Of a stretch of 64,000 bases of DNA, positions 528 to 54,196 are shown piece after piece. Source of the stretch: Chiloscyllium plagiosum. Taxonomy: Eukaryota. Each line of letters starts with the position of its first letter. The first letter of the stretch is position 1. The translations under genes and the position numbers were made by a program. The DNA is taken from positions 70,515,025 through 70,579,024 of the forward strand of contig NC_057718.1 in assembly GCF_004010195.1 (NCBI RefSeq), given 5' to 3'. The notes beneath the pieces are model-generated. The model made no database searches. It was given only the letters and a program-made list of their open reading frames with translations, and was not told the origin of the DNA.

Positions 528-746
528 ATTCTGGATCAGTGGTGCTGGAAGAGCACAGCAATTCAGGCAGCATTCGAGGACAGGCAAAATTGACGTTTTG
601 GGCAAAAGTCCTTTTTATTCCTGATGAAGGGCTTTTGCCCGAAACGTCGATTTTTGCCTGTCCTCGGATGCTGCCTGAATTGCTGTGCTCTTCCAGCACC
701 ACTGATCCAGAATCTGGTTTCCAGCATCTGCAGTCATTGTTTTTAC
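528..746. mobile_element. Short Penelope-like terminal-repeat insertion; fold-back structure with hammerhead core and 14-bp TSD
   Basis: 527-612 is the reverse complement of ~628-714. Flanked by ctaaatcctctggg (514-527) and ctaaatccactggg (747-760). Same sequence as the tail of the GIY-YIG element at 2010-2105. Confidence 0.85.
621..648 (+). ncRNA. Minimal type I hammerhead ribozyme core (PLE-associated)
   Basis: CTGATGA-A-GGGC-TTTT-GCCC-GAAACGTC: both conserved boxes, stem II, ACGU palindrome in place of stem III, GUC cleavage triplet. Stem I is weak (2-3 bp). Confidence 0.7.
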
Positions 747-1236
747 CTAAATCCACTGGGAGCTCATTCCATACACGCACCACCCTCTGTGTGAAAAAGT
801 TGCCCTTATCTAAATTAAACTCCATCTGCCACTCCTCAGCCCATTGGCCTAGCTGATCAAATCCCGATGTACTCGGGTATCCTTCGCTGTCCACTACACT
901 TCCAATTTTGGTGTCATCTGCAAATTAACTAACATTTCCTCCTATGTTCACGCCCAAATCACACTCACTGATCCTTGTGGCACACCACTGGTCACAGACC
1001 TCCAGTCTGAAAAGCAATCTTCCATCACTATGCTGTCTTCTATCTTTTTTGAGCTAGTTCTGTATCCAAATGGTTAGTTCTCCCTGTATGCCATGAAATC
1101 TAACCTTGCTAACCAGTCTCCCATGAGGAACTTTGTCGGACACCTTACTGAAGTCCATATAGATGACGTCCATCGCTCTACCTTCATCAATCCTCTTTGT
1201 TACTTCGAAAAGCTCAAGCAAGTTTGATACATGAAT

Positions 1237-2105
1237 ATGGAAAGTAATGGGTGGGTGTCCTGGAGATGTTCCCTAAAGCGCTCCACCACCAGGGATATAT
1301 TTCCCTCCCCACCCCTTTCTGCCTTCTGCAAAGACCGTTCCCTCCGTGACTACCTGGTCAGGTTCACGCCCCCCCGCCCCCAAAACCCACCCTCCCATCC
1401 TGGCACCTTGCCCTTCCACCGCAGGAACTGCAAAACCTGTGCCCACACCTCCTCCCTCGCCTCCATCCAAGGCCTTAAAGGAGCCTTCCACATCCATCAG
1501 TTTTACCTGCACATCCACTAATATCACTTATTGTATCCGTTGCTCCCGATGTGGTCTCTACGTTGGGGAGACTGGAGACCTCCTGTCAGAGCGCTTTTGG
1601 GAACGTCTCCGGGACACCCGCACCAATCAACCACACCGCCCTGTGGCCCAACATTTCAACTCCCCCTCCCACCCTGCCGAGGATATGGAGGTCCTGGGCC
1701 TCCTTCACTGCTGCTCCGTTACCACCAGACACCTGGAGGAAGAACGCCTCATCTTCCGCCTCGGAACACTTCAACCCCAGGGCATCAATGTGGACTTCAA
1801 CAGTTTCCTCATTTTCCCCTTCCCCCACCTCACCCTAGTTCTAAACTTCCAGCTCAGCACTGACCTACCTGCCACCTATCTTTTCCACCTATCCCCTCCA
1901 CCCTCCCCCGACCTATCACCTTCATCCCCTCCCCCAATCACCTATTGTACTCTATGCTACTTTCTCCACCCCCACCCTCTAGCTTATCTCTCCACGCTTC
2001 AGGCTCTCTGCCTTTATTCCTGATGAAGGGCTTTTGCCTGAAACGTCGATTTTTACTGCTCCTCGGATGCTGCCTGAACTGCTGTGCTCTTCCAGCACCA
2101 CTAAT
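1237..2105 (+). mobile_element. Penelope-like element 3' portion: GIY-YIG endonuclease plus terminal repeat, with short inverted 5' piece
   Basis: ORF 1346-2023 contains FTCTSTNITYCIRCSRCGLYVGETG...VAQHFNSPSH...EERLIFRLGTLQPQGINVDF; upstream CKTC Zn-knuckle suggests a Neptune-like PLE. 1249-1282 is an inverted copy of ~1590-1620. Confidence 0.9.
2020..2047 (+). ncRNA. Minimal hammerhead ribozyme core in PLE terminal repeat
   Basis: CTGATGA-A-GGGC-TTTT-GCCT-GAAACGTC. Confidence 0.65.
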
Positions 2106-2425
2106 CAAGGTATGTAGATAAGGCTAATGCAGTTGATGTGGTTTATATGGATTTCAGGAATGTCTTTGACAACGTTGCACATAAGTGATAGGGTAACTTG
2201 GCAAGTCAGATTCAAATTAGACTTGGGAGACTGGGTGGCAGTGGAAGAGTTTGTGCAGCTGGAGGCCACTGTTATGTGATGTACAGCAGGGATCAATATT
2301 GGGACCTTTTTTTATTGTTTGTGATCTGTATAACTGCTATAGGTGAGAATATTGTTCCCTTCTGAAATTTCAAAGAACAACTGTTTAAACTGAGCAAAGG
2401 GCATTAATTAGCAGGATGACTATTG

Positions 2426-3907
2426 GTAAAGTTAAAAATCTCAACACCAGGTTATAGTCCGACAGGTTTATTTGGGAGTGCTGCTCCTTAAGTAACTGTG
2501 GACCAGGGTCATGAGGCACAGAATTTATAGCACAAGATCAGCATCATGCATGCAACAAATGCAATATATTGAACAAACGTAGATTGCTGTAAAGTCTTTC
2601 ATCTTTAGAATGGGTTGCAGGTTTTGGTTCATTAATGTGTAAATCCCAAACTACTTTCTAATACATTCTCTAACTTAAGGCTTTAGAAAAAAAGTGACAT
2701 CTCAGCTCAGTGCATTAAAGGTGTGAGGTTAGAGTCTGTCTGTATCCCAATTTTGAGTCAGACTGGTTCTAAATCTAAAAGTAGGAATTTATAAAATGTT
2801 ACATTGGTTGACTGCCTGTGGATTGTGCTTTTTGAACAAAATACAATGTATCTGCGAATGTAAATTTACCTGTACACTTTTGTGTAAGCATGTGCCTCTT
2901 GTTGGGGGGGTAGTGACAGAGGGTATGCATGAGTGTATAGTGTAATGGGGTAACCTGTTGTGTGACATGAACCCAAGGTCCTGGTTGAGGCCATCCTCCT
3001 GAGTACTGAACTTGGCTATCAGCCTCTACTCGGCCACTTGGTGGTGGTGTTGTGTATCTTTGAAATCCGCCTTGGAGGATAGTCACTCAGAAATCTGAAG
3101 CCAAATGTCCTTAACTGCTGAAGTATTCCCCAACTATGAGGGAACATCCCTGTCTGATGTATGGATGCTAAGCAGATGCTGTGACAATTTTTGGTCTCAC
3201 CAATGTAACATGACTTGAGGCTTCCTTGCCTGCAGCGTATGAGACAACATTGGCTGAGTCACATGAGTACCTGCTGTTACATGGTGAGTGGTGTCATCAG
3301 GTGTAATGGTAATATCCATGTCATGTCTTGCAGTAGTTGCCCTGAGTGCTGTGTGGAGGTAGTGTTAATGTGACCCTACAGGTGACCCCACTACACTATA
3401 TATGGGGTGAATTTGCAGCATTGTAATTGAAGGTACGTTCTACTGTGCATTTTTGAACAAAATCTGTAGGTAGTCAATCTGTGATTCTATAATTTAAATT
3501 CCTACTTTGGAAATAGAACCAGTCTGACTCAAGATTGGGATACAGACAGACTCTAATCTCTCCTTTTTTTTTAATATATTGAGCTGAGATGTCACTTTTA
3601 TAAAACCTCCAAGTTATTATGTGAATATGATTTGAAAGATGTTCTGGGATTTACTTATTAATGAACTGAAACCTGCAACCCATTCTAAAGACTTAACAGC
3701 AATCTAGGTTTGTTCATTATATCTATTAGTTGCATGCGTGACACTGATCTTTTGCTATAAATTGTCTTACGACCCAATTCCACTCCTTACCTGATGAAGG
3801 AGCAGCACTCCAAAAGCTAGTGCTTCAAAATTAAACATGCTGGACTATAACCTAGTGTTGTGATTTTAACTTTGTCCACGCCAGTCTAATACTTGCTCCT
3901 CCACATC
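2426..3907. mobile_element. Second PLE family; ~1.5 kb inverted (fold-back) insertion with degenerate GIY-YIG on the minus arm
   Basis: ~2426-2870 is the reverse complement of ~3440-3875. Tail ctgatgaaggagcagcactccaaaagctagtg...ggactataacctagtgttgtg is shared with 54070-54195. atgactattg is repeated at 2416-2425 and 3908-3917. Confidence 0.75.
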
Positions 3908-4011
3908 ATGACTATTGTCAAGTCATTGCACTTTGCATTCCATATGGCAATACATGTTTGGTTTTGTTTGCAGAGGGCAGGTCATTGTGTATCAATGTGT
4001 AAGTGAACTAT

Positions 4012-4413
4012 GCTTAATGTGTTGCATTTTGCATTTCTTGCGGTTGCAGGGGAAGGTGGAGGGAGTGGTTTTTCCAGAACGCTGATGGGGGTGGGGAGGG
4101 AAATATATCCTTGGTGGTGGGGTCTGTTTGGAACACTTTAACTCCCACTCCGCCACGGACATGCAGGTCCTTGGCCGCTTCCATCGCCAGACCATGGCAA
4201 CACGACGCCTGGAGGAAGAGCGCCTCACCTTCCGCCTAGGAACCCTCCAATTACAAGGGATGAATGCAGATTTCTCCAGCTTTCTAATTTCCCCTTCCCC
4301 CACCTTTTCTCAGTCCCAACCCTCAGACTCAGCTGCTGCCTGACCCGCTGCGCTTTTCCAGCAACACATTTTTAAGCTCTGATCTCCAGCATCTGCAGTC
4401 CTCACTTTCTCCA
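4012..4413. mobile_element. Truncated PLE with inverted 5' segment and 14-bp TSD
   Basis: Peptide EHFNSHS...RRLEEERLTFRLGTLQLQGMNADF. tgtaagtgaactat at 3998-4011 and 4414-4427. Confidence 0.85.
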
Positions 4414-4702
4414 TGTAAGTGAACTATACCGAACCTGCCTGATTTTGGTTTTACACTTTTTTTGTGAATCCTAGCACTTGCAAGTGTAGATTATTTAAAT
4501 CCTTCACTTAAGTTGTCACGACTAAACAAGAGCCCACCCGCTCAGACATGGTCTTAAAAGAAGAATACACAAGTGTGTGTTGATATTTTTAAACAGGGTT
4601 CATTTAGGTGAGGGTGGATGGTGGTGGTCCTGGCCCAAAACATTGACTTTTCTTGCTTGATGCTGTCTGACCTGTAATCCTCCAGCCTCAAATATTGATT
4701 AT

Positions 4703-7422: not shown

Positions 7423-7619
7423 GAGTCAGTGGTGCTGGAAAAGCACAGCCAGTCAGGAGAGTTGATGTCTCGAGCATAAGCTCCTGATGAAGAGCTTATG
7501 CTCAAAACATCAACTGTCTTGCTCCTCTGCTGCCTGACTGGCTGGCTGTGTTTTTCCAGCACCACTTTTTTTTTTTACTCTGACTCTGATCGCCAGCATT
7601 TGTAGTCCTCACTTTCTCC
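7423..7619. mobile_element. Short PLE fold-back insertion with decayed hammerhead and 13-bp TSD
   Basis: tgtactctggata at 7410-7422 and 7620-7632; inversion centre immediately 5' of CTGATGA (7484-7490). Confidence 0.8.
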
Positions 7620-8399
7620 TGTACTCTGGATAATCACTTGCAGTGCCTATCACCAAGAGGGACTTGACACTAAACTGGCCATGTCCTGGAGGACATCACT
7701 TGTGGCAGGACTTATCCAGCAGTTATGAGGGAGAACCCACTTGTAACAATTTGTCACAGATATCTGGACATGACGGTATTGATATGTGACCACCGTAAAG
7801 TCCTTGTGAAGTTGTCCTCTCTTTGCACTCTGGGTATAGATCTAACAGCTCAGTATTAGACATCCCAGATCTGTTGTGTGCCGTCACCAGAATTGCGTTA
7901 ATCAATTAGTAATTTCAAGGCCTGGGTATAAGTACCCATTTTAAGTTTTTTTTTGTTAATTTTGAAGTCATGATTTCTAGGACTGGAATTCCAATTTAAG
8001 TTCAGCTCTAAGTAATTTTGATTGTTCTACATTTTGCGTTGAATTGACTCCTGGTCCTGTGACTTTGGCACCATTCTGAATCTGTTGCGAGGATAAGGAT
8101 TTGATCACCGTCAGGTTGATGGTTTTGTTTGAAAGATTTGAGGGAGGGGGTGTTATGGAACTTTTTTTTCAAGAAGATTAAGTGAATCAGCTTTTTGTTT
8201 TGAGGAAGGTGGGGCTTGGGTCACTGAAATCTGCAAGCTGATATTTAAACTTTGGAACTCCAGCTGTGCCCGTGGTGAAACTCCATGTCAGTTGAGGCAA
8301 AGGCCATTTTCAAGTCTTTTGAAGGAGCTGGAGCAGTTGCTACCGTACCATAAACATGTTGGGACTGAAAAATACAGGGTTCTCTCAGAAGTTTAATTC

Positions 8400-15583: not shown

Positions 15584-16016
15584 TAGGTGAAAGTGAGGAC
15601 TCTAGATCCTGGAGATTTAGAGTCAAGGTTAGTGTGGTGCTGGAAATGCATAGGTCAGGCAGCATCAGAGGAATAGAAAAATTGACATTTCGGGCAGGAG
15701 CACTTCATCAGGAATGAGGCTGGAAGCCTCTGAGGTAGAGAGATAAATGGAGGGGTGGGGCTGGGGAGAAGGTAGCTGGGAGTGCAATATAGCTGGATGG
15801 AAGAAGGGGTAAAGCTGATAGGTCGGAAAGGAGGGTGGAGCGGATAGGTGGGACATGTCATGAGGATGGTGCTGAGCTGGAAGTTTGGAACTGGGGTAAG
15901 GTGTGGGGAGGGGAAATGATGCCCTGGGGTTGAAGGGTCCTGAGGTGGAAGCGCTTTTGCCCGAAATGTCGAGTCTCTGGACTCTAATCTCCAGCATCTG
16001 CGGTCCTCACCTTTTG
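15584..16016. mobile_element. PLE insertion with element 3' termini at both ends (inverted); minus-strand hammerhead remnant at 15684-15711
   Basis: aaagtgaggact...ggagat at the left end, atctccagcatctgcggtcctcacctttt at the right end; body is the reverse complement of 1780-2100. Confidence 0.75.
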
Positions 16017-19673: not shown

Positions 19674-19813
19674 AGAAAGTGAGGTCTACAGATGCTGGAG
19701 ATCAGAGCTGGAAATGTGTTGCTGGAAAAGCGCAGCAGGTCAGGCAGCATCCAGGGAACAGGAGAATCGACGTTTCGGGTATAAGCCCTTCTTCAGGAAG
19801 GTCAGTGGCAAAG
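19674..19813 (-). mobile_element. Short PLE terminal-repeat insertion with hammerhead core (19769-19796, minus)
   Basis: Reverse complement reads CTGAAGA-A-GGGC-TTAT-ACCC-GAAACGTC. gtcagtggtg at 19664-19673 and 19814-19823. Confidence 0.8.
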
Positions 19814-21004: not shown

Positions 21005-21089
21005 AAACTTTATTGCTGGAACAGCACAGCAGGTCAGGCAGCATTCAGGGAACAGGAGATTCGAGGTTTCGGGCACAGGCCCTTCTTCA
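21005..21089 (-). mobile_element. 85-bp PLE terminal-repeat insertion starting at the hammerhead CUGAAGA, perfect 14-bp TSD
   Basis: gggatatttggtcg at 20991-21004 and 21090-21103. Confidence 0.85.
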
Positions 21090-21209
21090 GGGATATTTGG
21101 TCGGCATGGACGAGCTGAACTGAAGGGTCTGTTTCCATGCAGTTTCTGACTCTATATACGTTTCAAAGCCTACCCAATAAAGTCACTTTGGGATTACCCA
21201 ATTTTTTTT

Positions 21210-29440: not shown

Positions 29441-31500
29441 AGCAGTTTGTGGAAGTTGAAATCAATAATCATGATATCTGGAATTTAAGTCTACATTAAA
29501 TCATTTAGACAAACAAATCAACATTATCTTTTTTTTTTAGGGTAGGTAATTCTTACCTGGTCTGACCTACATGTGACTTCAGACCCACAGCAATGGTGAC
29601 TCTTAACTGCCCTGTTGAAATGGTGTAGCAAGCTACTCCAATGTTTCAATTGCTATAAAGTCTCTCAAAACTGGATGCTCAGCCTAGGCAGTGGAAACAA
29701 TAGCACCGCTGTGAAATCATCTTAATTTTGGCACTAGCCATTAAATATTAATAGAGTTGTCACAAACTAGTTGTAGTCATTTGGAATCATACCTTAAGAC
29801 ACTACCCAGAGATGGTGATAGTAGTATCTCCTGTCCCACCAGCAGAACAAATGCAGCAGATGATACAGAGTCAGATGGGAACTGCCCTTTCAATCCTCAG
29901 CATGGTATTAGGACAAACTTGGGCAAGACAGCCTCCTGCTGATCACAATGTTCTGTCTTCCTGGAGCTGATTGTTTCCTCCAAGCAACATGCAATAATTA
30001 GGAGCATCAATACAGAGGATGGCATGGGCATAGGATGTACTTTTGGGTTAGGGATTTCAACATCCACTAGGAATGCCTCAGCAGCATCACTATCGATCAC
30101 ACTGGCTTTTAAAAGACTAAACTGGTTGCTGTGGTTCTGTTTGCCGAGCTGGAAGTTTTTGTTGCAATAAACACCAGAGGAAACATCAAAGAAGCGCTTC
30201 GCAGGAGGCTCCCAAGCACTGATGTCGCCTAGCCAGGGGACGAAACATTTGCAACAAAAACTTCCAGCTCGGCGAACAGAACCACAGCAACGAACACCCA
30301 AGCTACAAATCTTCGCACAAACTTTGAAGACTAGATTGGACTAAACCTCTAGACTGGATCTGTGGCAGGTGGTATGGGGATAATCCATATTTGAACTCAT
30401 TGCTTTCAATCTGCCAATAGCAGATACGGCTATATGTGACAGTACCAGTAAGACTGACCATCTCTCACTCTTGTGGAGACAAAAGTTTGTCTTTGTGTTG
30501 ACAATACCTTGCATTATTTTATGTGGCACTTTTTCAATTATATAAAAATGGGATAGATTCCAAACCTGTCTGGTAATCTGATGTGCCAAGAACCACTAGC
30601 AGCAGCAGAAGAATCATACTCCAACACAATCTACAACCTCATGGCCTGTTAATTTTCCCACTCTACCATTGTCATTGAGTCAGGGTTGATTACCATTGCC
30701 ATCAAGCCAGGAGGAGTTCAGGAGGGCATGCTCGGAACAGCAGCAAACATTCCTAAAAATGAGTGGTCAACCTGGTGAAACTACACCATGTTTAACAAAA
30801 ACCGAAAAGGAGACATAAGCAATTTTCTCCGTCAACTAATCTAATCTAAATTCTGTAGTCCTGCTACGTCCAGTTGTGAATGGTAGTGAACGGTTAAGCA
30901 ACTTGCTGGAGGAAGACTCTCTACAATGATGGAGTCCAGTGTGTCAGTGTAAAATTTACAATTCCTTTTTAACCAGGAGTGTTGTGGGCTCCACCAGAGC
31001 TCCCTGCAACACAGATGCCAGCCCTCAGCCAATTTGATTCATTCCATCTGATGTCAAGAAACAGCTGTGGGTACGGACAATAGTACTGAAGATGCGCCAA
31101 ACTTCCTGCACCCTGAGCCAAGCTGTTACAGTAAAACTACAATGTGACATCTACTTAACAATCTAGATTGTTTTTACAGGAGATACCGGACAACTACCAT
31201 CCATCTACTCTTGATTATCAGTGATGGAAGATCTAATCAACAGTGCTATCATGCAGCACTTGCTTAGTAACCTGTTCTCACACCCACTCGCATGGTTTGG
31301 GTTCTAGCATAGCCACTCCGCTCCCAACCTCATTTACAGCAATGATTCAAATATAGACTGAATTTGAGCAGCACTAAGAATGCTGTCCTAGCCATCAAAG
31401 CCACATTTGACAGTGGTATCTGAGAGCTGTAGCAAATTCTGGCACTAAGGAAGAAGGTTGGCATTGTTGTAGGTCAGTCGCCTCCAATTATAGGACAAGT
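29440..31500 (+). mobile_element. Old LINE relic (CR1/L2 group) preceded by a DeuSINE-like domain
   Basis: cttacctggtctgacctacatgtgacttcagacccacagcaatg (Deu-like). LGISTS/GDFN-like endonuclease remnant near 30045; catcaaagccacatttgacagt (DIKAAFD-like) near 31392; related fragment at 7650-7890. Confidence 0.5.
30126..30326. mobile_element. Poseidon-type PLE terminal repeat, fold-back, imperfect 13-bp TSD
   Basis: 30125-30167 is the reverse complement of ~30249-30291. aagactaaactgg (30113-30125) and aagactagattgg (30327-30339). Tail agctacaaatctt is shared with 32215-32230. Confidence 0.75.
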
Positions 31501-31724: not shown

Positions 31725-32240
31725 TCTGACTGACGTCATTTACAAAATACCGTGCAAGGACTGTAGCAAACACTATGTTGGACAAACAGGCAGAAAACTA
31801 GCCATCAGGATACATGAACACCAACTCGCCACAAAAAGACATGATCTTCACTCAATAGTATCCTCACATACAGATGAGAAAGGACACTGCTTCGACTGGG
31901 ACGACATATCCATCCTAGGACAAGCCAAACAAGGACACGCACAAGAATTCCTAGAAGCATGGCATTTCAACCAGAACTCTATCAACAAATGCATCGTGTT
32001 AGACACCATCTACCACCCCCTGAGAAAAGGAACAAATGACTTCACCACAGGAAATGACATCAACCCAAAGAAACCCAAACACAAATAGAAAGCAGGAATT
32101 TTCGGCATTGCTTCGCATGAGGCCCACTGAAGATGTTACCTAGTAAGGTAATGAAACGTCTGAAAATGAACCTCCAAGCTCAGCGAGCAAACTTGCATCC
32201 AAGACCTCAACCTGAGCTACAAATCTTCTCAAAACTCACT
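31725..32240 (+). mobile_element. Penelope/Poseidon-type PLE 3' part: GIY-YIG endonuclease plus terminal repeat
   Basis: VIYKIPCKDCSKHYVGQTGRKLAIRIHEHQ...EFLEAWH..NSINK. Confidence 0.9.
32127..32160 (+). ncRNA. Minimal hammerhead ribozyme core in Poseidon-type terminal repeat
   Basis: ca-CTGAAGA-T-GTTACC-tagtaa-GGTAAT-GAAACGTC-tg: 6-bp stem II, ACGU palindrome, GUC triplet, 2-bp stem I. Confidence 0.7.
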
Positions 32241-32454
32241 AATCTATAAGATGTATTGCAGAAATTTACCAAAGATCCTCAGACAGCACTTTCCAGACCC
32301 ACAGCCACTTCCACTTAGAAGGACAAGGGCAGTAGATATATGGAAACGCCACTGCCTACAACCTTGCTCCATGCTGCTTGCTGTTCTGACTCTGAAATAC
32401 ATAATTTCTTTAGTGTCTACCTACAGTACCCATTCTTCAAAATACCCATGTATT

Positions 32455-33140
32455 TAAAAAGAATGGATACCCAATGAACACAGTCCACAGATTTCTCAGC
32501 AACAAACCCAAACAAGCAGACAAAACTCATCCAGAAACCCTAGCCACTCTCCCCTACATCAAAGGCACCTCAGAAATGACTGCCAGACTACTCCGATCCC
32601 TTGGCATCATGGTAGCCCACAAACCCACCAACACTCTAAAATAGCAGCTATTGAACTTGAAAGATCCTACACAGACAACAAGCAAAACTAACGTCACTTA
32701 CAAAATACCGTGCAAGGAATGTAACAAACACTACATTGGACAAACGGGCAGAAAGCTAGCCACCAGGATACATGAACATCAACTAGCCACAAAATGTGGC
32801 TTTTCTCACGAGTATCCTTATGTACAGATGAGGAAAGAACCACTTCGACTGGGACAACACATCTATTCTAGGACAAGCCCAACAGAGACACTCTCGAATT
32901 CCTAGAAGCATGGCATTCCAACTGGAGCTCTATCAACAAGCAGAGTTGAACCCCGACCACCACCCCTAAGAAAAAAAAACAGGAAATGATGTCACCACAG
33001 GAAATGACATCAACCCAAAGAAACCCAAACATTTGAATAGAAAGCAGGAATTATCAGCAGTGCTTCGTCCAGAGGTCCAATGAAGATGTTACTTAGTGGG
33101 CAATGAAACATCTGAAAATGAACCTTCCAGCTCAGTGAAA
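32455..33140 (+). mobile_element. Second Poseidon-type PLE copy (RT thumb/linker, GIY-YIG, decayed terminal repeat)
   Basis: LPYIKGTSE..RLLRSLGI.VAHKP; TNVTYKIPCKECNKHYIGQTGRKLATRIHEHQ; hammerhead decayed at ~33079-33112. Confidence 0.85.
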
Positions 33141-33204: not shown

Positions 33205-36200
33205 ACTAATTGTTGTCATACAGCATGGAAATCAACCCTTCGGTCCCAGCCATGTTCCCAAACGAAACTACTCCCACTGTCCTGTACTTGGCCCATTTCC
33301 CTAAACCTGTCCTTTTCATGAAGTTATCCATATGTCTTTTAAATATTGTAACTGTATCTGCATTCACTAAATTCTCTGGCAGTACATTCTGCACACAAAC
33401 CATTTTTTTAAAAAGAAAGTTGCTACTCTGTCCTCTTTCAACCTTTCATCTTAAAATTATATACAGTCATAGAGATGTACAGCACAGAAACAGACCCTTT
33501 GATCCCCAACCCGTCCATGCTGACAAGATATCCCAACCCAAACTAGTCCCACCTGCCAGCACCGGGCCATATCCCTTCAAACCCTTCCTATTCATATACC
33601 CATCCAAATGCCTCTTAAATGTTGCAATTGTAATAGCCTCCTCCACTTCCTCTGGCAGCTCATTCCATAAACATGCCACCCTCTGTGAAAAGGTTGCCCC
33701 ATAGGTCCCTTTATATCTTTCCCCTCTCGCCCTAAACCTGTGCCCTCTAGTTCCGGACTTTATCCTCTAGTATTGAGTTCCCCTACTTGAGGGAAAAGAC
33801 CTTAAACTGTGCCCCTCATGATTTTATAAGCCTCCATAGGGAATCTCTCCACTTCCTATGCTCCAGCAGGAAACAAAGTCCCAGATATCCAGTGTTTTTA
33901 TATCTCAAATCCTCCATTCCTTGCAACATTCCAGTAAATCTTTTTTGAACCCCCCTCCAGTTTAAAAACATCCTTCCTATGACAGGGTGACGAGGGTTGG
34001 CCTTGCCAACCTTGCCTGGTTTTCCTCTTTCGTACTGTTTAAAAAGCAGCATGTGCAATTTTGTAATCTAGAAGGGTGTCTCCTGAACCTAGGGATTTTT
34101 GAAAGATTGTAGCTAGGGTATCTAAAATGTGATCTCTTTCTTTCTTTAGTGCCTCTTTTGGATGCAAACCATCAGGTTCTGGAGATTTGTCAATTTTTTT
34201 TTCAGTTTTATTAATTTTCTCAATGTTTTCCTTAGTTTTAACTTCTTCAGTCCCTGTCCCTAATCCACTATTGAATTCCTCAGGACTTCTCCAAGCTCTC
34301 CTCTTTTCTACTGTAAATACTGAAGCAAAGCAATTATTCAACACATCTGCTATTTTCCCCATAGTCATTAACAATATTCCCTTTTAGTGGGCCAACATTG
34401 TTCCTGATTACTTAAAATTACTTATTAATTTTGTCCCTTGCAAGTTCCCGATTGTAATCTGTTTTCAGTAGCTCTTGTTAGCTTCTTTGTGACCCTATGA
34501 TTTTTATCTTTTTCATTCGGCAATATCTGTGCTGGCTGCTTTTTTTGCTTTTAAGCTCTTTAGGTTTCTGCTTTGCCTATCTCTTTAGTTGTCTGTAGCT
34601 TTTTTCCTCTGGTAAGTGAAACTTTTTTTTCATTATGAACTGGTTTTGTATTGGTTTATATGTTTTATGATTTTAGAGGTACCAGTGTTGGACTGGGGTA
34701 GATAAAGTTACCTGGTGGAGTATAATCTGGTGTTATGCAAATTTTTGCTTGTAAATGTTTTAAGTGTCCATCTTGGTTCTTCAGTTTTAACCATTTACAG
34801 ATTTTCCCAGTTTACTGTAGACAGTCTTTGTCTCATTACTGAAGTTGGCCAAAATCTAAAATTCTGGTAGTTGATTCATGCTTTTTGCATTCAAACACTA
34901 CATTGAACTCTATCAAATTATGATCACAGTTTGATAGATTATTCATGTGCAGTTAGGTTACTAAGTAAATCTGGTTCATGACTCATTAGGAGATCCAATA
35001 TGTCATTTGTCCCCTTGCGTCCAGGACACATTGCTGTTGGAAAATATCCCAAATGTACTCTTAAAAATTCACTACCTTTTACTGACCGGTGCTTAACTGC
35101 CTCTCCCTATCTATCAAAGTTAGAATCCCCCATTAATACTACTCTGCCTTTGCACATAACTAACTTCTACATTTGTGCTATTAAGCACTTAATGCTGCTA
35201 CCAGGGGTTTATACACATTATTTTATCCTTCCTCAGTTCCACCCGTAAGGTCTCTACTGGACGCTTCCGTTATATCCTCTCTCACTATTTGAAGTGATTT
35301 TGTTTCTGAATCTTTCATTTTTGAATTAGTAAGGCCATTGTTTTTACCTAGGGAGGATGCAATGACTGCAGATGCTGGAAACCATATTCTGGATTAGTGT
35401 TGCTTGCTGAGCACAGCAGTTCAGGCAGCATCCGAGGAGCAGTAAAATCAATGTTTCGGGCAAAAGCCCTGCATCCTCCTTGCCTTTTTTCCCCCGTCCC
35501 TCCTATACACTTTATCTGGTGTATTTAGTTCCCAGTCCTGACTATAAAGCAGCCATGTCTCTGCAATGGCTACAATATCATAGCTTCCGATTTGAATTTG
35601 TGTCTGCAGCTCAATTAATTTATTCTTGTACTCCATGCTTGTGGGGTACTGTTTTTTGGGTCATATCCTCTAACCTGTCCCTCGGCACCTGATGATGCTT
35701 TCAACTATTTTATTATTAAAAAATGTTATTTAATTTTGCCATTCTATTCCATACCTGAAGTTGGATTCCTGTCTGTTTCTTTAATCTGTTCTATTTTCTT
35801 TTGAAGCTATATAGACTTGCCTCAAGTCTACCCCCATTATACTAGGTTTGAAGTTCTTGTGACCACTGTATCTGTCTTTTCCACTAGGACACTGGTCCCA
35901 GATCAGTTCAGGTGAAGCCTGTCCCAAATAGTTCCTACTTGTCCCAATACTGAGGCCAGTATGCCATGCAATAGAACACCTCCTACCTGTACCACTCCTT
36001 TTAGCCACATACTTGCCTAATTTTCTTGTGTCAATTTTCACATTGGCTCAGGTAAGAATAGAGATTATAAGCCTTGAGGTCCAGTTCTCAAATTTTGTTC
36101 CTAATTATTGATATTCCACAAACTGACCTCTTGCCTACTCTTCCCTATGTTATTAGTGCCAACTTGGGACCTAACATCCCCAAAAACTAGATATTCCCCC

Positions 36201-37279: not shown

Positions 37280-38295
37280 CAATGCCAAGACTGACATGTT
37301 GTCTTTCTAAACTAAAATCCTTTTACATCTGCACGGTCTGTATTACTGTTCCCTGACTCTTCACGTATCTGTTAACGTGCATCTTAAATTTGCTATTAAT
37401 CTGCCTCCACCACCTCTGGCACATTCCAGGAACTTGCCACTTTTTTATGAAGAAACCACTTGCCCCTCTCATCATTTTAAACTGACTGTTTCTTTTTAAC
37501 TTTAAACCTACATCCCCTCGTATTTGACATTTCTACCCTGGTGGAAAAAGGCTCTTGACTTATCCATTCTATCCATGCCCCTCAATTTTGTAAAATTCTA
37601 TCGGGTCATCACTCCTTCAATGCTTAAGTGAAAACTAACCAAGTTTGTCTAATCTCTCAAAAAAATACCCTCCAAATCAGGCAGCATCCAGGTAAACCAT
37701 TTCTGTAGCTTTTGCAAAGCCTCTCGATCCTTCTGGTAATGTGGTAACGAGAACTCTGCATAATATTCCAAATGTGACCTAACTGAAGTTATAAACAGCT
37801 GCGACATGACTTGCCATGATTTTATACTCTGCCCTGACTAAGGCTGTATACCTTTTGACCACCTTACCTATTTGTGTTGCCACTTCCAGGGAACTGTGGA
37901 CTTGCATACCAATGTTACTTTATATGTAAATACTTCTTAGTGTTCAACCATTTACTGAAGAAGGGCTTATGCCTGAAACGTCGATTCTCCTGCTCCTTGG
38001 ATGCTGCCTGACCTGCGCTTTTCCAGCAACACATTTTTTTTTTCTCTGTTCTACCATTTTACTGCATACTTCCCTCCTGCATTTAGATCTTGCAAAATGC
38101 ATTGTGGTGCATTTGGCTGGACTAAACTGCCCAAGGCTCCAGCCTATGTACTTCCTGCTGTATCCTCTGGCAATCTTCATTTTCTGCAACTTGCTCAATC
38201 TTTGTGTTGTCTGCAGCCTTATTAACCAGGCCACTAGCATTCTTCAAATTATGTGTCAACGGGATCACAGTGGATCACAATCCCTGTGGAACACC
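37280..38295 (-). mobile_element. CR1-like LINE 3' fragment, continuing at ~39405-39660 beyond the Tx1 insert
   Basis: gagaactctgcataatattcca (EY.VQFW-like) and WSLGQFSPAKCTTMHF on the minus strand. Confidence 0.65.
37955..38046 (+). mobile_element. Short PLE insertion starting exactly at an intact hammerhead core (37955-37982)
   Basis: CTGAAGA-A-GGGC-TTAT-GCCT-GAAACGTC. Imperfect TSD tgttcaaccatttactg (37941-37957) and tgttctaccattttactg (38047-38064). Confidence 0.8.
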
Positions 38296-40979: not shown

Positions 40980-41290
40980 AGCATGCTGAGCATGAAGGTT
41001 TGTTTTCAGACATTTTGTCACCACACTAGTAACATAATCAGTGAGAGCCTCTGGTGAAGCGCTGGTTGTATGTTCTGCCTCTTTATTTATAGGTCTTGTT
41101 GTTTTAAGGTGGGTGATGTCATTTCCAGTTCTTGCTTTCCCAAGGGAAGGTAGATAGGATCTAAATCAATGTGTTTATTGATGGAGTTCTGGTTAGGATG
41201 CCATGCCTCTAAGAATTCTCGTGTGTGCCAGGTGAAACAAAGACACAGTCTGAAAACAAACCAAGCTCAGCGAGCTAACTTACATATCTA
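40980..41290. mobile_element. Poseidon-type PLE fragment, fold-back
   Basis: Minus arm 40985-41225 (gatgccatgcctctaagaattc = EFLEAWH); plus arm 41248-41287 repeats the tail. Confidence 0.7.
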
Positions 41291-41510: not shown

Positions 41511-42440
41511 GGTCAGGCAGCATCCAGGGAACAGGAGAATCGACGTTTCGGGCATAAGCCCTTCTTCAGGAATGAGGAAAGTTTGTCCAGCAGGCTAAGA
41601 TAAAAAGGTAGGGAGGAGGGACTTGGGGAGGGGCATTGGAAATGGGATAGGTGAAAGGAGGGCAAGGTGAAGGTGATAGGCCGGAGTGGGGGTGGGCACG
41701 GAGAGGTCAGTAAGAAGACTGGAGGTTAGGAAGGCAGTGCTGAGTTCGANNNNNNNNNNNNNNNNNNNNNNNNNNNNNNNNNNNNNNNNNNNNNNNNNNN
41801 NNNNNNNNNNNNNNNNNNNNNNNNNNNNNNNNNNNNNNNNNNNNNNNNNNNNNNNNNNNNNNNNNNNNNNNNNNNNNNNNNNNNNNNNNNNNNNNNNNNN
41901 NNNNNNNNNNNNNNNNNNNNNNNNNNNNNNNNNNNNNNNNNNNNNNNNNNNNNNNNNNNNNNNNNNNNNNNNNNNNNNNNNNNNNNNNNNNNNNNNNNNN
42001 NNNNNNNNNNNNNNNNNNNNNNNNNNNNNNNNNNNNNNNNNNNNNNNNNNNNNNNNNNNNNNNNNNNNNNNNNNNNNNNNNNNNNNNNNNNNNNNNNNNN
42101 NNNNNNNNNNNNNNNNNNNNNNNNNNNNNNNNNNNNNNNNNNNNNNNNNNNNNNNNNNNNNNNNNNNNNNNNNNNNNNGACCTCTCCGCCCCCACCCCCG
42201 TCTGACCTATCACCCTCACCTTGACCTCTTTCCACCTATCACATTTCCGACGCCCCTCCCCCAAGTCCCTCCCTCCTACCTTTTATCTTAGCCTGCTGGA
42301 CAAACTTTCCTCATTCCTGAAGAAGGGCTTATGCCCAAAACATCGATTCTCCTGTTCCCTGGATGCTACCTGACCTACTGCGCTTTTCCAGCAACACATC
42401 TCCGGCTCTGATCTCCAGCATCTGCAGACCTCACTTTCTC
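41511..42440. mobile_element. Young PLE fold-back insertion spanning the gap, 14-bp TSD
   Basis: cccacagtggatta at 41497-41510 and 42441-42454; 41511-41707 is the reverse complement of 42179-42374. Hammerhead intact on minus 41542-41569, decayed on plus 42317-42344. Confidence 0.85.
41750..42178. other. Assembly gap (429 N)
   Basis: Run of N characters. Confidence 1.
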
Positions 42441-45041
42441 CCCACAGTGGATTACCCAACCTCCTGCAAAAATGCTATCCTTTATTCCCAATTCCTCTAC
42501 CTCCACCGCATCTGCTCCCAGGAGGACCTGTTCCACCACAGAACACGCCAGATGGCCTCCTTCTTTAAAGACCAATTTCCCCTCCCACGTGGGGGTTGAT
42601 ACCCTCCAGCGCATCTCATCCACTTCCTACACTTCTGCCCTTGAACCCCCACCCCTCCAACCGCGATGACAGAACCCCCTACTCCTCACCATCATCCTTT
42701 GTCCTCTTTATCATCCTCCACCATTTCCACAACCTACTCCAGCACCAGAGATATTTCCCTCCCCACCCCACCTGCTTTCCATAAAGACAGAAGTTAAGTT
42801 CCCTCCACAACTGCATCGTCAGGTCCACGCCCCCCCACCCCAACTTCATCCTAAGCCCCAAAGAAGCCATCAAAGTTTCACCTGCACTTCCATACATCTC
42901 ACTTACTGTATCCATTGCTGCTGATGCAGTCTCCTCTGCGTTGAGGAGATAGGATACCTACTCACCGAGCGTTTCAACGAATGTCTCTAAAACACCCGGA
43001 CCAACCAACTCCACCAGCCCGTGGCTGAACACATCAACTTCCCCTCCTGCTTTGCTGAGGGCATGCAGGTCCTGGGCCGCCTCCACTGCCACTCCTTATC
43101 ACCCAATGCCTGGAGGAAGAATGCCTCATCCTCTGCTTCGGGACTCCAACTCTGATATCAATGTGGATTTCACCAGTTTCATCATTTTTCTTTCCCCCCC
43201 CTGCCCCACCTTATCCCAGTTCCAACCTTCCAGCTTAGCACCGCCTTCATGACCTGTCCCATCTGTCTATCTTCCTTACAACCTATCACCTTTTAACCCC
43301 ACCTATTGTACTCTCCAATACCGTTCTCCCCCAGCCCCACCGTCCTCCCGTTTCCACCCGAGGCTCCCAGCCTCATGCCTGATGAAGGGCTTTTGCCTGA
43401 AACGTCAATTTTCCTGCTCCTTGGATGCTGCCTGAGCTGTGTTTTTCCAGCACCACACTCTCTTGACCCTTGCATGTCATCAACCTGAGCTACAAATATT
43501 CTCAAATCGTTAGGTGTATCAATTTTAGGCTGTGGCCAACCGCTGGAAGATGTGAAAAGGAATAGGCCATCTGGCCCCTTGAGGCTGCTTTGCTGTTCAA
43601 CAGGTTCTTGGTTGATCTTTTTGTGGACTCACTCCACTTACCCACCTGCTCACTATAATCTTCAATTCCTTTACTATTCAAAACTCTGTCTACCTTTTGC
43701 CTTAAATACATTCAACAACATAACTTCAGTTGCTTTACTGGATAGAGAATTCCACAGATTCACAACCTTTTGGGAGAAGAAGTTTCTCCTCAACTCATTC
43801 CTAAATCCGCTCCCCCTTTTTATTTTTGAGGCTGTGACCCTTAGTTCTAGTTTCACCTGGTAGTGGAAACAACCTCTCTGTTTCTATCTTATCTATTCTC
43901 TTCATAATTATAAGTTTCTACAAGCTTCCCCACCATTCTAAATTCCAATGTGTATAGTCCCAGTCTACTCTCTCTCCTCATAAGCCAACTATCCCCATTC
44001 CAGAATCAACGTAGTGATCTCTTCAACACCCCTTCCAGTGCTAATATATCCTTTTTCAAGTAAGGAGATCAAAACTGTATGCAATATTCCAGGTGTGATT
44101 TCACTAGCTGCAGCGTAACCACCTTGTTTTTAAACTCTTGCCCTCTAGCAATGAAGGACAGTATTCCATTTGCCTCCTTAATTGATCTGCAGGCACAGAT
44201 AATGTTGTGTGATTCATGCACAAGGACACCCAGGTCCCTCTGCACAGCAGCATGCTGTAATTTCTTTTTACCGGTCCCTCTGCACAGCAGCATGCTGTAA
44301 TTTTTTTTTTACCACTTTATATTCCATTTTGCTGTTTATTCCAACCAAAGTGGATGACCTCCCATTTATTGAATTTGTACTCCATCTGCCAGACCCATTC
44401 TATAATTCTACTGCAGACTTTCAATGTCCTCTGTACACTTCACTGGACTACTCATTTTAGTGTCATCTGTGAATTTTGACACATTACACTTGATCCACAA
44501 CTCCAAATCATCTCTAAATTGTAAACAATTGCAGCCCAAACACTCAGCTCCATATAGAAAAGCACCTGTTTGTCCCCACTCTTGTGCTGTTAACCAATCC
44601 TCTATACATCCTTATACATTACCTGAAATGCTGTGTCTTACACAGCAGCCTTGTGTGCAGGACTTAGTTGAATTCTTTCTGAAAATCCACAAAACACCCC
44701 ATCCACTGGTTCCCATTGTCCACTGCACTCATAATGTCCTCAAAGAATTTGAATAAATTAGTTCAACGTGACCAATCTTTTCATGAACCAGTGCTGCTTG
44801 AATAGTTTGTCTGAATGTCTCACTATTTATTCCTTAATAGATTCACGCATTTTCCCCACTACAAAAATTAGGTTAACTATAGAACTGTTAGCTTATCTTT
44901 TGTCTACCTCCATTTTTCTAAACAGTGGTGTTGCTTGCTAGTTTCCAATCTGCTGTAACTGCCCCCAAAGTCCATCAAATTTAGTGAATTACCATGAGCG
45001 CATTTGCTATTTTCCCCTACCCTGGGATGCATTTCATCAGG

Positions 45042-45174: not shown

Positions 45175-46288
45175 TGCATTTCATCAGGGCCAGGCGATGT
45201 CTGTCTTTAGTCTCATTAGCTTGCCTAACGTTACCTGATTAGTGACAATGATCGATCCTCTGTCCTCACCTTCCATAGCCTCCTTGTCACCAATTATTGG
45301 CATGTTTATTGTCTTCAAATGTGAAGACTGATACAAAACACCTGTTCAATGCATCAGCCATTTCCTCACATCCATTATTAAATGCGCCTTCAAATCCTCT
45401 AAAGGACCAATGTTTATCTTAGCCTCTATTTTTGGCTTTATATATTTATAAACATTTTTGCTATCTGTTTTTATATTATGAGCTAATTTACCCTCAATCC
45501 ATCTTGCCTTTCTTTAGTGTTTTTTTTTGTGTGGCTTTCCTTTTTACCACTTAAAGATTTCCCAATCCTTTAGTTTCTACTCATCTTTGCAACTCTGTAT
45601 TTGCTTCCAATTTTATACCCTCCTTTTCTTTCCTTTAGTTATCTATGGCTAATTATCCCTTTCCTAGTCTTTCCTTTTTCAGTGGTAGAATATTTTTGCT
45701 GAACAATGAAAAATTTTGAAAGTTTTTTTTTAGATTTGATTAGATTAGATTACTTACAGGGTGGAAACAGGCCCTTCGGCCCAACAAGTCCACACTGACC
45801 CGTCGAAGCGCAACCCACCTATGCCCCACCCCCAAACCATCCCACTGTAGTCTCCTCTGTTTAAGCGCAAAACATTGGTATTGGATTTTTGCTTCTCTCC
45901 CACCATCTGTATTTTAAATTCAACCCTACTGTTATTGCTCCTTCAGAGAAGGTCCTTAACTGAGACATTAATTATTCCTGTCACTTTTTTATACGGGACC
46001 AGATCTAGGATAGCTTATTCCCTCGTAGGTTCCTCGAACAATGGGTAATGGAACCTATCGTGGATACATTCTCGAGGAACTTCTCCTCAAGGCTGCCTTG
46101 ACTGACCTTGTTTTGACCAATCAATATGTAGATTAAAATTCCCCATAATAATTGTTGTACCATTTTCACATCAATTGTTTTCTTTTATTGCCTGTTCCAC
46201 CGTGGTATTTGGTGGCCTATAGACTACATCTATCGATGACATTTTCTCCTTTTTATTATTTCTAATTTCCACCCACATAGTTCTGTAG

Positions 46289-46582
46289 AGGGTGGCATGG
46301 TGGCTCAGTGGTTAGCACTGCTGTCTCTCAGTGCCAGGGACCTGGGTTCAATTCCTGCCTCTGGCAACTGTCTGTGTGGAGTTTGCACATTCTGTGTCTG
46401 TGTGGGTTTCCTCTCACAATCCAAAGATGTACAGGTTAGGTGAATTGGCTATTCTAAATTGCCTGTAGTGTTAGGTGGATTAGTCAGGGCAATGGGTCTT
46501 GGTGGGTTGCTCTTTGGAGGGTCGGTGTGGACTGGTTGGGCCGAAGGGCCTGTTTCCACACTAAGAGAATCTAATCTAATCT
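46289..46582 (+). mobile_element. HE1-like V-SINE
   Basis: gggtggcatggtggctcagtggttagcactgctg head; aatctaatctaatct tail. Confidence 0.85.
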
Positions 46583-47945: not shown

Positions 47946-47949
47946 GTTG

Positions 47950-52960: not shown

Positions 52961-52989
52961 GATGATTAATCCAATTCTATTCATCCTGG

Positions 52990-53630
52990 GTTGCTCCTCC
53001 AGTAGATCCCTAAAGGTGTCAGCACAGGTTGGTAGGGTGATAAAAGCATGCAGATGTTTTCCTTCACTAGCTGGAGCATAAAATATAGCAGCAGGTCCTG
53101 TTGCACCTTGATAGAACATTGGTTCAATCTCAGATGGAATGCTGTGTGCGCCATCATATTGAAAGGATGTGATTGTACTGGGGAGGGTGCAGGGGAGGTT
53201 CGCCAGGATGCTGGCTGAGTTGAAAAGATCGTGTTATGAGGAGAGGTTAGGTTTGTTTTCCTGGAGCAGAGGAGGCGGAGGTAATATCTAGTCAAAATCC
53301 TCAAAATTGAGGCATGTATAGGTTGGGTCATGAGACAGGTCTGCCATGGGGAGAGGATTCCAAAACTATAGGGCAAACTTTGGAAGGTGAGGATTAAGTA
53401 ATTTTAGTGGAGGTCTGAGGAAACCTTTTTTCATTTCATCTACAAGACGGTAGAAATATAGAATGTGCTGCCTGAGGGGGTAGTGGAGGCAGGTACTGAA
53501 TGTTTTAAGAAGCATCTGGATGAACACTTAAGATAAAGTGTGAGTGAAGGTGATTAGTATAGTTTGATGTCTATTTGGTGTATACATAGGAGGCTAAAGG
53601 ACCTTTTTTTTTCTAAGCTGTATGACTGAG
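52990..53630 (+). mobile_element. CR1 3' fragment
   Basis: aggttcgccaggatgctg...ctggagcagaggagg...aatgtgctgcctgagggggtagtggaggcagg. Confidence 0.7.
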
Positions 53631-54054
53631 TATGAAATAGAATATGATTGTATATTTTGTTTTTGTAATTATAATTGAAGTGGCTCTCTCTTATTAAGAG
53701 AAGACCTGAGTACATCGCAAACAGTTTAAAGAAGGTATACCTGACTGATTCATGGGATGAAGGGACACTTACAAACATGATCCTGCTTGAAGTTGACAAG
53801 AATGGTGAAAGAATGCTATTGCTGGAGGGGAAACTAGAACTAAGCAAAGCAGTTTCAAAAGGGATCTGGAAGCTTAAAATAGAGGTGAAATAGATAAGCG
53901 ATGAATGTCACAAAGGGAACCGTTTTTAACTGCCTCTAGTCTACATCTTAATTAACCTATTGGCATCTTCCTATTTGTCTTGGTAGTTCCTTTTGTTTTC
54001 AATAGCTTTTATTTTGCTCTCAGCATTGCTGACTGTCAAACCTAGTCTTAGACT

Positions 54055-54196
54055 TTGTGGAGTACTCCACAATCACCTGATGAAGGAGCAGCGCTCCAAA
54101 AGCTAGCGCTTCCAATTAAACCTGTTGGACTATAACCTGGTGTTGTGATTTTTAACTTTGTACACCCTAGTCCAACACCGGCGTCTCCAAATCATT
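54055..54196 (+). mobile_element. PLE family-2 terminal repeat with hammerhead-like motif (54077-54105)
   Basis: cac-CTGATGA-A-GGAGC-agc-GCTCC-AAAAGCTA-gcg; the G of GAAA is replaced by A; same tail as 3790-3907. Confidence 0.7.

What the first reader, a model, noticed from the sequence alone, without database searches (positions are those of the whole stretch)
621..54105. Dispersed minimal hammerhead ribozymes from at least three Penelope-like families
Seen: the motif CTGA(T/A)GA-[hairpin]-GAAA-[palindrome]-T(C/A) recurs with three unrelated stem II sequences. (1) GGGC-TTTT/TTAT-GCCC at +621, +2020, +37955, +43379, -19769, -41542, with decayed copies at +7484, +42317, -15684, -21063. (2) GTTACC-tagtaa-GGTAAT at +32127, decayed at ~30229 and ~33079. 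(3) GGAGC-agc-GCTCC with an AGCU palindrome at +54077, and a variant with a shorter stem at +3791. The catalytic boxes are conserved while stem II changes completely but stays paired, which is covariation-type evidence. Each motif lies in the terminal repeat that follows a GIY-YIG region in the longer copies. Established: PLE terminal repeats carry minimal type I hammerheads with a palindromic stem III, thought to act as dimers. Inference: these are ribozymes; stem I is only 2-3 bp here, so individual copies may be inactive.
Basis: partly seen in the sequence, partly recalled or inferred. Interest (0 to 1): 0.7.

Follow-up and report, generated by a model that had tools for sequence, protein, structure and literature searches.

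The report
Shark Penelope retrotransposon hammerhead relics
These short repeats match the minimal self-cutting RNA motif already known from the ends of Penelope-like jumping genes and are mostly decayed and likely inactive copies in shark-like DNA, so the finding is real but ordinary; the one extra is that in one family a polyadenylation signal, used in a related shark's RNA, lies ten bases behind the predicted cut.

Summary
Real, but a known class. Seven copies keep every core position of the published minimal hammerhead (0 in 100 shuffles); only four also keep helix II of 4 bp or more and helix I of 2 bp or more. Family 1 follows Neptune-type and family 2 Poseidon-type GIY-YIG remnants. Family 3's endonuclease is only suggested. 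Both family-3 copies lack G12, but the family majority has it. Decay is mostly at CpG sites (17 of 78 against 8 of 265 positions). Six short copies start 0-15 nt before the core and none at the cut, so their templates were likely uncut. Corrections: minus-strand coordinates are 27 nt off; +3791 is damaged, not a shorter-stem variant; a fourth family lies at +61819. Extra: in a relative's poly(A) RNA, 1473 of 3259 reads laid on family 3 end in A-tails 27-30 nt after the predicted cut, behind AWTAAA. The class is described (PMC4209133). This scan found it many times in this and other shark genomes, and the poly(A) signal twice.

The parts
619..650 (+). Family 1 minimal hammerhead, all core positions kept, helix I 2 bp, predicted cut after 648; predicted to be folded shut in a ~95-bp hairpin with its inverted partner
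514..760 (.). Head-to-head family 1 insertion (inverted arm 527-614, direct copy about 614-746) between 14-bp target duplications 514-527 / 747-760, inside a LINE-like RT remnant
   Evidence: (I15)
1279..1807 (+). Neptune-type linker (CxxxxCxxC) and GIY-YIG endonuclease remnant of family 1, frameshifted
2018..2049 (+). Family 1 hammerhead in the terminal repeat behind that endonuclease; core kept, 10.1-11.1 is G-U after a CpG change
2416..3921 (.). Family 3 insertion: terminal repeat on minus (2428-2827, hammerhead partly deleted), possible endonuclease remnant on minus (about 2960-3430), inverted repeat on plus (3458-3907), candidate target duplication at 2416 / 3908
3788..3822 (+). Family 3 hammerhead, G12>A and one helix II G>A, helix I 3 bp; ATTAAA 11 nt after the predicted cut
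4131..4415 (+). Family 1 endonuclease end plus terminal repeat whose hammerhead is deleted
7482..7513 (+). Decayed family 1 hammerhead (5 changes) in a short insertion with 13-bp target duplication 7410-7422 / 7620-7632
15682..15713 (-). Decayed family 1 hammerhead (C3 at 15711), with an inverted truncated partner at +15943
19767..19798 (-). Family 1 hammerhead (C3 at 19796), solo copy, one helix II mismatch
21061..21092 (-). Family 1 hammerhead (C3 at 21090), palindrome broken; solo copy that starts at C3, 14-bp target duplication
30217..30251 (+). Decayed copy of a second family-2 subfamily (3-nt deletion in box 1), part of an inverted pair 30125-30323
31732..32031 (+). Poseidon-type GIY-YIG endonuclease remnant of family 2
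32125..32162 (+). Family 2 hammerhead, core kept, helix II 6-7 bp, helix I 2 bp, predicted cut after 32160
32453..33140 (+). Second Poseidon-type remnant (RT thumb and endonuclease) with a decayed hammerhead at 33080 (C3>A, palindrome broken); 81.5% like the first copy
35389..35477 (-). Family 1 copy truncated inside box 1
37953..37984 (+). Family 1 hammerhead, solo copy that starts 1 nt before C3, no helix I; 13-bp target duplication
41005..41043 (-).
41540..41571 (-). Family 1 hammerhead, fully intact (C3 at 41569); left arm of an inverted pair across an assembly gap
   Evidence: (I1)
42315..42346 (+). Family 1 hammerhead, G12>A and palindrome broken; right arm of that pair, which is inserted in a family-1-type RT frame with a 14-bp duplication 41497 / 42441
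42453..43225 (+). Neptune-type RT thumb, linker and endonuclease remnant
43377..43408 (+). Family 1 hammerhead behind that remnant; core kept, helix I lost
54074..54108 (+). Family 3 hammerhead, G12>A (family majority G) and 1.2 C (family majority T); predicted cut after 54105; 18-nt palindrome 54055-54072 at its 5' end
54115..54155 (+). Family 3 polyadenylation cassette: ATTAAA/AATAAA 54115-54120, A-tails added after 54132 and 54135 in a relative's RNA, GU/U-rich stretch behind
61815..61853 (+). Fourth family: decayed hammerhead with its own helix II and a 4-bp helix I, core reads U3 and A8; directly behind a weak endonuclease end at 61727-61825

Best explanation
These are genomic copies of the minimal type I hammerhead motif carried in the terminal repeats of at least four repeat families, two shown and two likely to be Penelope-like retrotransposons, and the dispersed copies are likely inactive relics that are decaying at CpG sites. 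Shown here: the motif, its between-family covariation, the endonuclease context of families 1 and 2, head-to-head structures with 13-14-bp target duplications, CpG-biased decay, and A-tails added behind the family 3 motif in a relative's RNA. Inferred from the published lizard element (PMC11167929): the element's protein nicks DNA and starts reverse transcription at an internal 'tail' site 80-125 nt downstream of the motif on uncut RNA, and copying stops at or near the RNA's 5' end just upstream of the core. That would give the short copies that begin 0-15 nt before C3. In the active parent the motif would cut after GUC or CUA only as a double hammerhead of two repeats paired through the 4-nt palindrome, and probably only with protein help. 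Its likely job is to trim precursor RNA to unit length, not to enable insertion. Odds: identity about 0.9; most copies inactive about 0.85; the copying route about 0.6; cutting in vivo by the parent elements about 0.55.
For: 7 strict matches against 0 in 100 shuffles. The match to the published consensus includes the extra nucleotide after A9, G10.1 and the palindrome. Helix I covaries across four families, and pairs in 8 of 8 outside loci although it was not in the search pattern (about 6 distinct sequences). Family 1 ORF end: best hits are carpet-shark and other RT+GIY-YIG proteins, E 9e-45. Family 2: E 1e-48. Family 3 majority is G at position 12 in 60-66% of contig depth in three DNA runs and 75% of RNA read depth, although the reference carries A. 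CpG positions changed 17 of 78 against 8 of 265 (Fisher p 6e-7, 13 family-1 copies), and these CpGs fall on 11.1/G12, the palindrome and the cut site. The double-hammerhead fold is 11-30 kcal/mol above the best two-strand fold for 5 of 5 copies tested. +621 folds shut at -176.7 kcal/mol.
Against: No cleavage was measured. The family 3 endonuclease is not confirmed: frameshift-tolerant score 36.7 against a maximum of 33.4 in 220 background tiles, but 39.5 among 60 shuffles; no homologue; no Pfam GIY-YIG match. Rfam found no hammerhead in the window or in 6 of the 8 loci searched. In ten family-1 copies the non-CpG core had 0 changes in 100 positions against 4 in 70 in helix II. That could hint at selection after insertion, but the copies were partly chosen by the motif. 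No whole genome was held, so counts rest on one window. Energy models ignore the tertiary core. Earlier scan notes report U6 fusions at the cut site (not tested here), which would argue for more cutting in vivo than I infer.
Confidence: 0.85

Rival explanations
1. The hammerhead and the poly(A) signal form one 3'-end module. The transcript is polyadenylated about 30 nt behind the ribozyme, and cutting removes the tail. This would switch the RNA from message to tail-less or circular template, and host RNAs that end in a family 3 repeat would carry the same switch.
For: 1473 of 3259 laid reads end in A-tails after 54132 or 54135. Depth on that strand falls from 2194 to 361 there, while the other strand (431 to 396) and DNA contigs (about 20% lower) do not. 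ATTAAA follows the cut by 12-20 nt in 4 of 8 outside loci (two of the four are near-identical). By eye, 11 of 56 printed flanks in PMC4209133 Fig. S3 hold AAUAAA or AUUAAA, against roughly 3 by a rough hand estimate. The Clec2 hammerhead is a precedent (PMC6765202).
Against: Families 1, 2 and 4 have no such hexamer within 120 nt in 6 of 6 copies checked. The tailed reads run through the predicted cut without a step, so they are uncut. The run is from a relative, about 2% of it was read, and duplicates were not removed. Whether the RNAs are element or host transcripts is unknown. A ribozyme that starts a repeat with its own terminator would sit near a poly(A) signal without any coupling.
Confidence: 0.12
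2. The motif is mainly a structural or protein-binding signal of the element, or a passenger, and cutting plays no part in its spread.
For: In the lizard element, ribozyme mutants insert normally in vitro and no RNA-seq reads end at the cut (PMC11167929). Naiad elements spread without it (PMC8557442). All six short copies with a definable start contain the whole motif.
Against: Catalytic boxes, NUH and helix I stay intact while the helices change in four families and in outside loci, as expected of selection on catalysis. The lizard motif does cut when the protein is added. This rival is partly compatible with the best explanation.
Confidence: 0.25
3. The short copies are an independent non-autonomous retrozyme or SINE family that spreads through self-cleaved circular RNA.
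For: Most copies are 90-140 nt with no ORF. A preprint reports tandem retrozymes in one chondrichthyan (10.64898/2026.07.22.740005).
Against: No head-to-tail tandem of intact motifs was seen in the window. The nearest same-strand pairs are 953 and 1399 nt apart, each with a different element context. The same sequence ends longer endonuclease-bearing copies. 5' ends do not fall at the cut.
Confidence: 0.05
4. Chance matches to short boxes inside repeats.
For: Single copies fold weakly (6 of 7 not clearly beyond shuffles), and Rfam finds none.
Against: 0 strict matches in 100 shuffles, and covariation in helices I, II and III across unrelated families.
Confidence: 0.01

Closest known systems
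Minimal hammerheads (min-HHR) in the pseudo-LTRs of metazoan Penelope-like elements (Cervera and De la Pena 2014, PMC4209133; main text parts 1-2 of 4, supplement parts 1-2 of 3)
   Same: CUGANGA-H, G10.1, helix II of 4-7 bp, GAAA, loop-less palindromic helix III, UH, short helix I; several families per genome, mostly solo copies, some opposite-strand pairs. Family 1's core is close to the Acropora Neptune and Nematostella entries.
   Different: No chondrichthyan is in their table or alignment, and 'shark' does not occur in the text. Helix I is at the short end (2-4 bp). They call the 3' flank AU-rich but name no poly(A) signal.
Poseidon element of Anolis carolinensis (Frangieh et al. 2024, PMC11167929; parts 1-2 of 4)
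   Same: Family 2 has a Poseidon-type endonuclease. Copies made from uncut RNA, and ends in a downstream tail, fit the short copies here.
   Different: That element is intact and was assayed; every ORF in this window is broken. Protein-assisted cutting is not tested for these families.
Neptune-clade EN+ Penelope-like elements and their inverted pLTR structures (Craig et al. 2021, PMC8557442; Arkhipova et al. 2013, PMC3846280; passages of both)
   Same: Cysteine linker before the GIY-YIG domain (family 1); inverted 5'-truncated copy next to a direct repeat; palindrome at a 5' end; target duplications.
   Different: Target duplications here are 13-14 bp, against 8-10 bp in the rotifer passages read. 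The clade is assigned from motifs and profile scores, not from an RT tree.
Animal non-LTR retrozymes (bioRxiv 10.64898/2026.07.22.740005; part 1 of 5 and passages; supplements closed)
   Same: Type I hammerheads related to Penelope terminal repeats; reported in one chondrichthyan.
   Different: Retrozymes are defined by head-to-tail tandems with a ribozyme in each unit; none was seen here. Their shark families could overlap with these; the tables could not be read.
Clec2 3' UTR hammerhead of rodents (as reviewed in PMC6765202, passage)
   Same: The cut lies upstream of a poly(A) signal, so cleavage would remove the tail (family 3 layout).
   Different: Clec2's is a single-gene, discontinuous type III motif (type recalled) with shown activity. 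Here it is a repeat-borne minimal motif with no shown activity.

Membership tests
Minimal type I hammerhead of metazoan PLEs | CUGANGA and GAAA boxes with UH at the cut | tested here: met
   7 copies of families 1 and 2; family 3 only by its majority letter; family 4 copy reads U3/A8
Minimal type I hammerhead of metazoan PLEs | Extra nucleotide between A9 and 10.1; G10.1 pairing with 11.1 | tested here: met
   11 of 11 listed hits have both; the pair is G-U in 5 of them
Minimal type I hammerhead of metazoan PLEs | Palindromic 15.2/16.2 with no stable helix III | tested here: met
   ACGU in families 1 and 2, AGCU in family 3
Minimal type I hammerhead of metazoan PLEs | Short helix I closing the motif | tested here: met
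   2, 2, 3 and 4 bp in families 1-4 with changed pairs; lost in +37955 and +43379
Minimal type I hammerhead of metazoan PLEs | Self-cleavage as a dimer or with protein | not testable with these tools
   The fold energy disfavours the dimer; random-fragment RNA reads cannot show a cut
EN+ Penelope-like element | RT plus C-terminal GIY-YIG endonuclease ahead of the repeat (families 1 and 2) | tested here: met
   remnants only
EN+ Penelope-like element | The same for families 3 and 4 | tested here: inconclusive
   Family 3: motif-like pieces in three frames, score 36.7 against 33.4 background and 39.5 shuffle maxima; no database hit. Family 4: score 46 against 33.4, profile E 0.059
EN+ Penelope-like element | Direct or inverted pseudo-LTRs, with an inverted truncated copy at the 5' side | tested here: met
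   527-746, 41500-42440, 30125-30323, 2428-3907
Neptune clade (family 1) | CX2-5CxxC linker between RT and endonuclease | tested here: met
   Window 1279-1506 aligns to that linker in P0001/P0002; definition from PMC8557442
Penelope/Poseidon clade (family 2) | No cysteine linker; Poseidon-type endonuclease | tested here: met
   32453-32794 aligns from RT thumb to endonuclease with P0010, which lacks the linker; scores 324 against 107 on the two profiles
Neptune or Poseidon clade | Placement in an RT tree with reference elements | not tested
   No named reference sequences were fetched
Non-LTR retrozyme | Head-to-tail tandem units, each with an intact hammerhead | tested here: not met
   None among the copies mapped in the window; the genome was not available
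Rfam hammerhead families | Match to a curated model | tested here: not met
   No hammerhead match at E up to 1

The most novel reading that the evidence does not exclude
In family 3, and perhaps in many Penelope lineages across animals, the hammerhead is paired with a poly(A) signal 10-20 nt behind its cut. The pair would be a built-in de-tailing switch that turns the capped, tailed message into a tail-less or circular template, and the many dispersed copies would hand shark host transcripts a poly(A) site with a conditional cut in front of it.
Probability: 0.12. Interest if true: 0.6.

Novelty: new member of a known kind. Interest (0 to 1): 0.2.

Why it matters
As it stands, it extends a class described in 2014 to cartilaginous fish and shows that such motifs are a dense, mostly dead layer of this genome (about 20 whole or partial copies in 64 kb). 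That warns against reading genomic hammerhead hits as host regulators. The poly(A) site fixes one end of a Penelope transcript relative to its ribozyme. What these ribozymes do is still open (PMC8557442, PMC11167929), and this layout gives a direct test: whether cutting removes the tail in vivo.

Tried and rejected
Whole genome: none held, so no genome-wide consensus, copy number or selection test.

Rfam: only chance hairpin matches in the window, and none in 6 of the 8 loci given.

Family 3 endonuclease: local tblastn with 33 proteins gave no convincing hit, the database search none, Pfam none.

Family 3 motif: 0 loci in viral and prokaryotic collections.

Run search: no RNA holder listed. 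Run X22 laid 0 reads and is no test. No pile-up of read starts or ends was listed at any place, the predicted cuts included; these libraries cannot show a cut, so this is not evidence. For family 1 no A-tail was among the loose ends shown, but 3543 rows were not shown.

The higher share of G12 in RNA (75%) than in DNA (60-66%) was not taken as selection: few loci may dominate, and the reference biases the lay.

Single-copy folding is uninformative.

Literature: searches for Penelope with hammerhead and polyadenylation signal, with pLTR and polyadenylation, with HHR and poly A, and with shark, plus word searches in five PLE papers, found no statement on a poly(A) signal behind the ribozyme or on shark motifs. 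The library lacks most subscription papers. Lunse et al. 2017 was not held and is known only as cited in PMC6765202.


Full report
Setting. The window is repeat-dense vertebrate DNA (41% G+C, one 429-base gap). The closest proteins to its broken ORFs are named from carpet sharks, so I call it shark-like. No whole genome was held.

Observation. All 15 listed sites hold a copy. A descriptor with the published features passes 7 copies with no core error (+621, +2020, +32127, +37955, +43379, -19796, -41569); 100 local dinucleotide shuffles gave 0. Four of the seven also keep helix II of at least 4 bp and helix I of at least 2 bp. Both family 3 copies read AAAA in place of GAAA, and +3791 is a damaged member, not a shorter-stem variant. 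Further copies were missed at -41041, -619, +15943 and -35477, and a fourth family at +61819. Rfam gave no hammerhead match.

Covariation. Helix I also covaries: 2.1-1.1 is C-G, A-U, C-G, U-A and 2.2-1.2 is U-A, C-G, A-U, C-G in families 1 to 4, family 3 being read from its majority letter (T at 54107 in about 97% of contig depth). A metagenome scan with a pattern that held the boxes and helix II but not helix I returned 8 loci, about 6 of them distinct. All 8 pair at 2.1-1.1 and 7 at 2.2-1.2, with 1-6 bp in all. One of the 8 has a Penelope-type RT upstream. Within family 1 the differences are decay: 17 of 78 CpG positions against 8 of 265 others in 13 copies, two polymorphic columns left out. 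The three CpGs cover 11.1/G12, the palindrome and the cut site, so methylation decay hits the ribozyme where it matters. In family 3, G12 is kept in 60-66% of contig depth in three DNA runs of related organisms. Against my reading, the non-CpG core showed 0 changes in 100 positions against 4 in 70 in helix II; the set is small and partly chosen by the motif.

Context. Family 1 ends Neptune-type remnants at 1279-1807 and 42453-43225, and one at 4131-4283 whose motif is deleted. Family 2 ends Poseidon-type remnants at 31732-32031, 32453-32943 and 41108-41230 (clade features from PMC8557442). Family 3 has the same architecture: a repeat on minus, about 470 nt with endonuclease-like pieces in three frames, an inverted repeat and a candidate target duplication. 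Its protein link did not reach significance. The other copies are solo or head-to-head pieces. Six have clear 13-14-bp target duplications (around 621, 7484, 21090, 37955, 41569/42317, 45093) out of 12 structures examined; two more gave 10-bp candidates and four none. The six short copies whose start can be placed (+621, +7484, -19796, -21090, +37955, +54077) begin 0-15 nt before C3 and none at the cut, so their RNA templates likely held the whole uncut motif.

Activity. The double-hammerhead fold lies 11-30 kcal/mol above the best two-strand fold for all 5 copies tested, though such models ignore the tertiary core. +621, with a perfect core, is predicted to be locked in a hairpin of about 95 bp by its inverted partner. 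The only close same-strand family 2 pair has a dead second copy. Published minimal motifs do not cut as monomers and cut weakly as dimers (PMC4209133). The lizard Poseidon motif cuts only with the element's protein and is not needed for insertion in vitro (PMC11167929). I therefore take the window's copies as likely inactive and place any function in the parent elements.

Poly(A) site. Laying a single-cell poly(A) run of a related organism (X21, about 2% read) on 54062-54185 gave 3259 reads. 667 and 806 of them continue as A-runs after 54132 and 54135. Depth on that strand drops from 2194 to 361, the other strand hardly changes, and three DNA runs list no A-run there among the rows shown (623 rows not shown). 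The site lies 12-15 nt after ATTAAA/AATAAA (54115-54120; about half the reads have each form), is followed by a GU/U-rich stretch, and is 27-30 nt after the predicted cut. Many variants at 4-50% indicate several loci. The reads cross the cut without a step, so these molecules are uncut; short cut fragments would not be seen. Priming on rare genomic A-tailed copies, and duplicate reads, are not excluded. Families 1, 2 and 4 lack the hexamer within 120 nt. Four of 8 outside loci have ATTAAA 12-20 nt after the cut, and by eye 11 of 56 flanks in the 2014 alignment hold AAUAAA or AUUAAA. I found this in no paper searched. Two earlier notes of this scan record the same signal; I saw them.

Mechanism, most likely. 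Inferred steps: the repeat starts a transcript just upstream of the motif; in family 3 the downstream repeat ends it about 30 nt past the second motif, so that one unit-length RNA holds two whole motifs; these could pair through the palindrome, with protein help, and trim the RNA to unit length. Insertion starts from an internal tail site on mostly uncut RNA, which leaves the short and inverted copies. Once inserted, copies decay.

What was read. PMC4209133: main text parts 1-2 of 4, supplement parts 1-2 of 3. PMC11167929: parts 1-2 of 4. bioRxiv 10.64898/2026.07.22.740005: part 1 of 5 and passages; its supplements are closed and may list shark families. PMC8557442, PMC3846280, PMC2377424 and PMC6765202: passages. 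Lunse et al. 2017: not held. Hammerhead numbering, poly(A) signal rules, the read orientation of single-cell 3' libraries and the labels CR1 and SINE are from general knowledge.

Verdict. It is a new member of a known kind, already found many times by this scan. Interest 0.2.

Noticed in passing
window 61815-61853 +: A fourth hammerhead family whose core reads U3 and A8 instead of C3 and G8. This is either the compensatory variant reported in Schistosoma (PMC4209133) or two chance changes, one at a CpG; one copy cannot tell.
   Followed up: partly
window 41291-43225: An inverted pair of family 1 repeats, with an assembly gap between the arms, is inserted in the RT frame of another family-1-type element with a 14-bp duplication.
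   Followed up: partly
window 45028-45188: A head-to-head family 1 insertion with a 14-bp duplication in which both arms stop short of the hammerhead.
   Followed up: partly
window 54055-54072: A perfect 18-nt palindrome at the 5' end of the family 3 solo copy, like the 5' palindromes described for rotifer Penelope repeats (PMC3846280).
   Followed up: no
window 3755-3765 + and about 2525-2535 -: A TATAAAT sequence about 30 nt upstream of the family 3 core, also seen in the loose read ends; a candidate promoter that would start RNA just before the motif.
   Followed up: no
window 34655-34760: A small inverted pair of family 3 repeat ends without the hammerhead.
   Followed up: no
window 514-1200, 20248-20691, 56015-56891, 10925-11440: Fragments of a CR1-like LINE (RT end; a possible ORF1 piece at 10925-11440); the label is from recall and Pfam gave no hit.
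   Followed up: no
window 46290-46576, 54844-55161, 58559-58900, 63446-63625: A tRNA-like SINE family whose tail is shared with a LINE-like end (families D2, D6, D7, D19).
   Followed up: no
L005 1501-1528, L007 1501-1528: Two metagenome loci with identical flanks whose motif and helix I closely resemble the Acropora Neptune entry of the 2014 alignment; animal DNA in metagenome collections.
   Followed up: no
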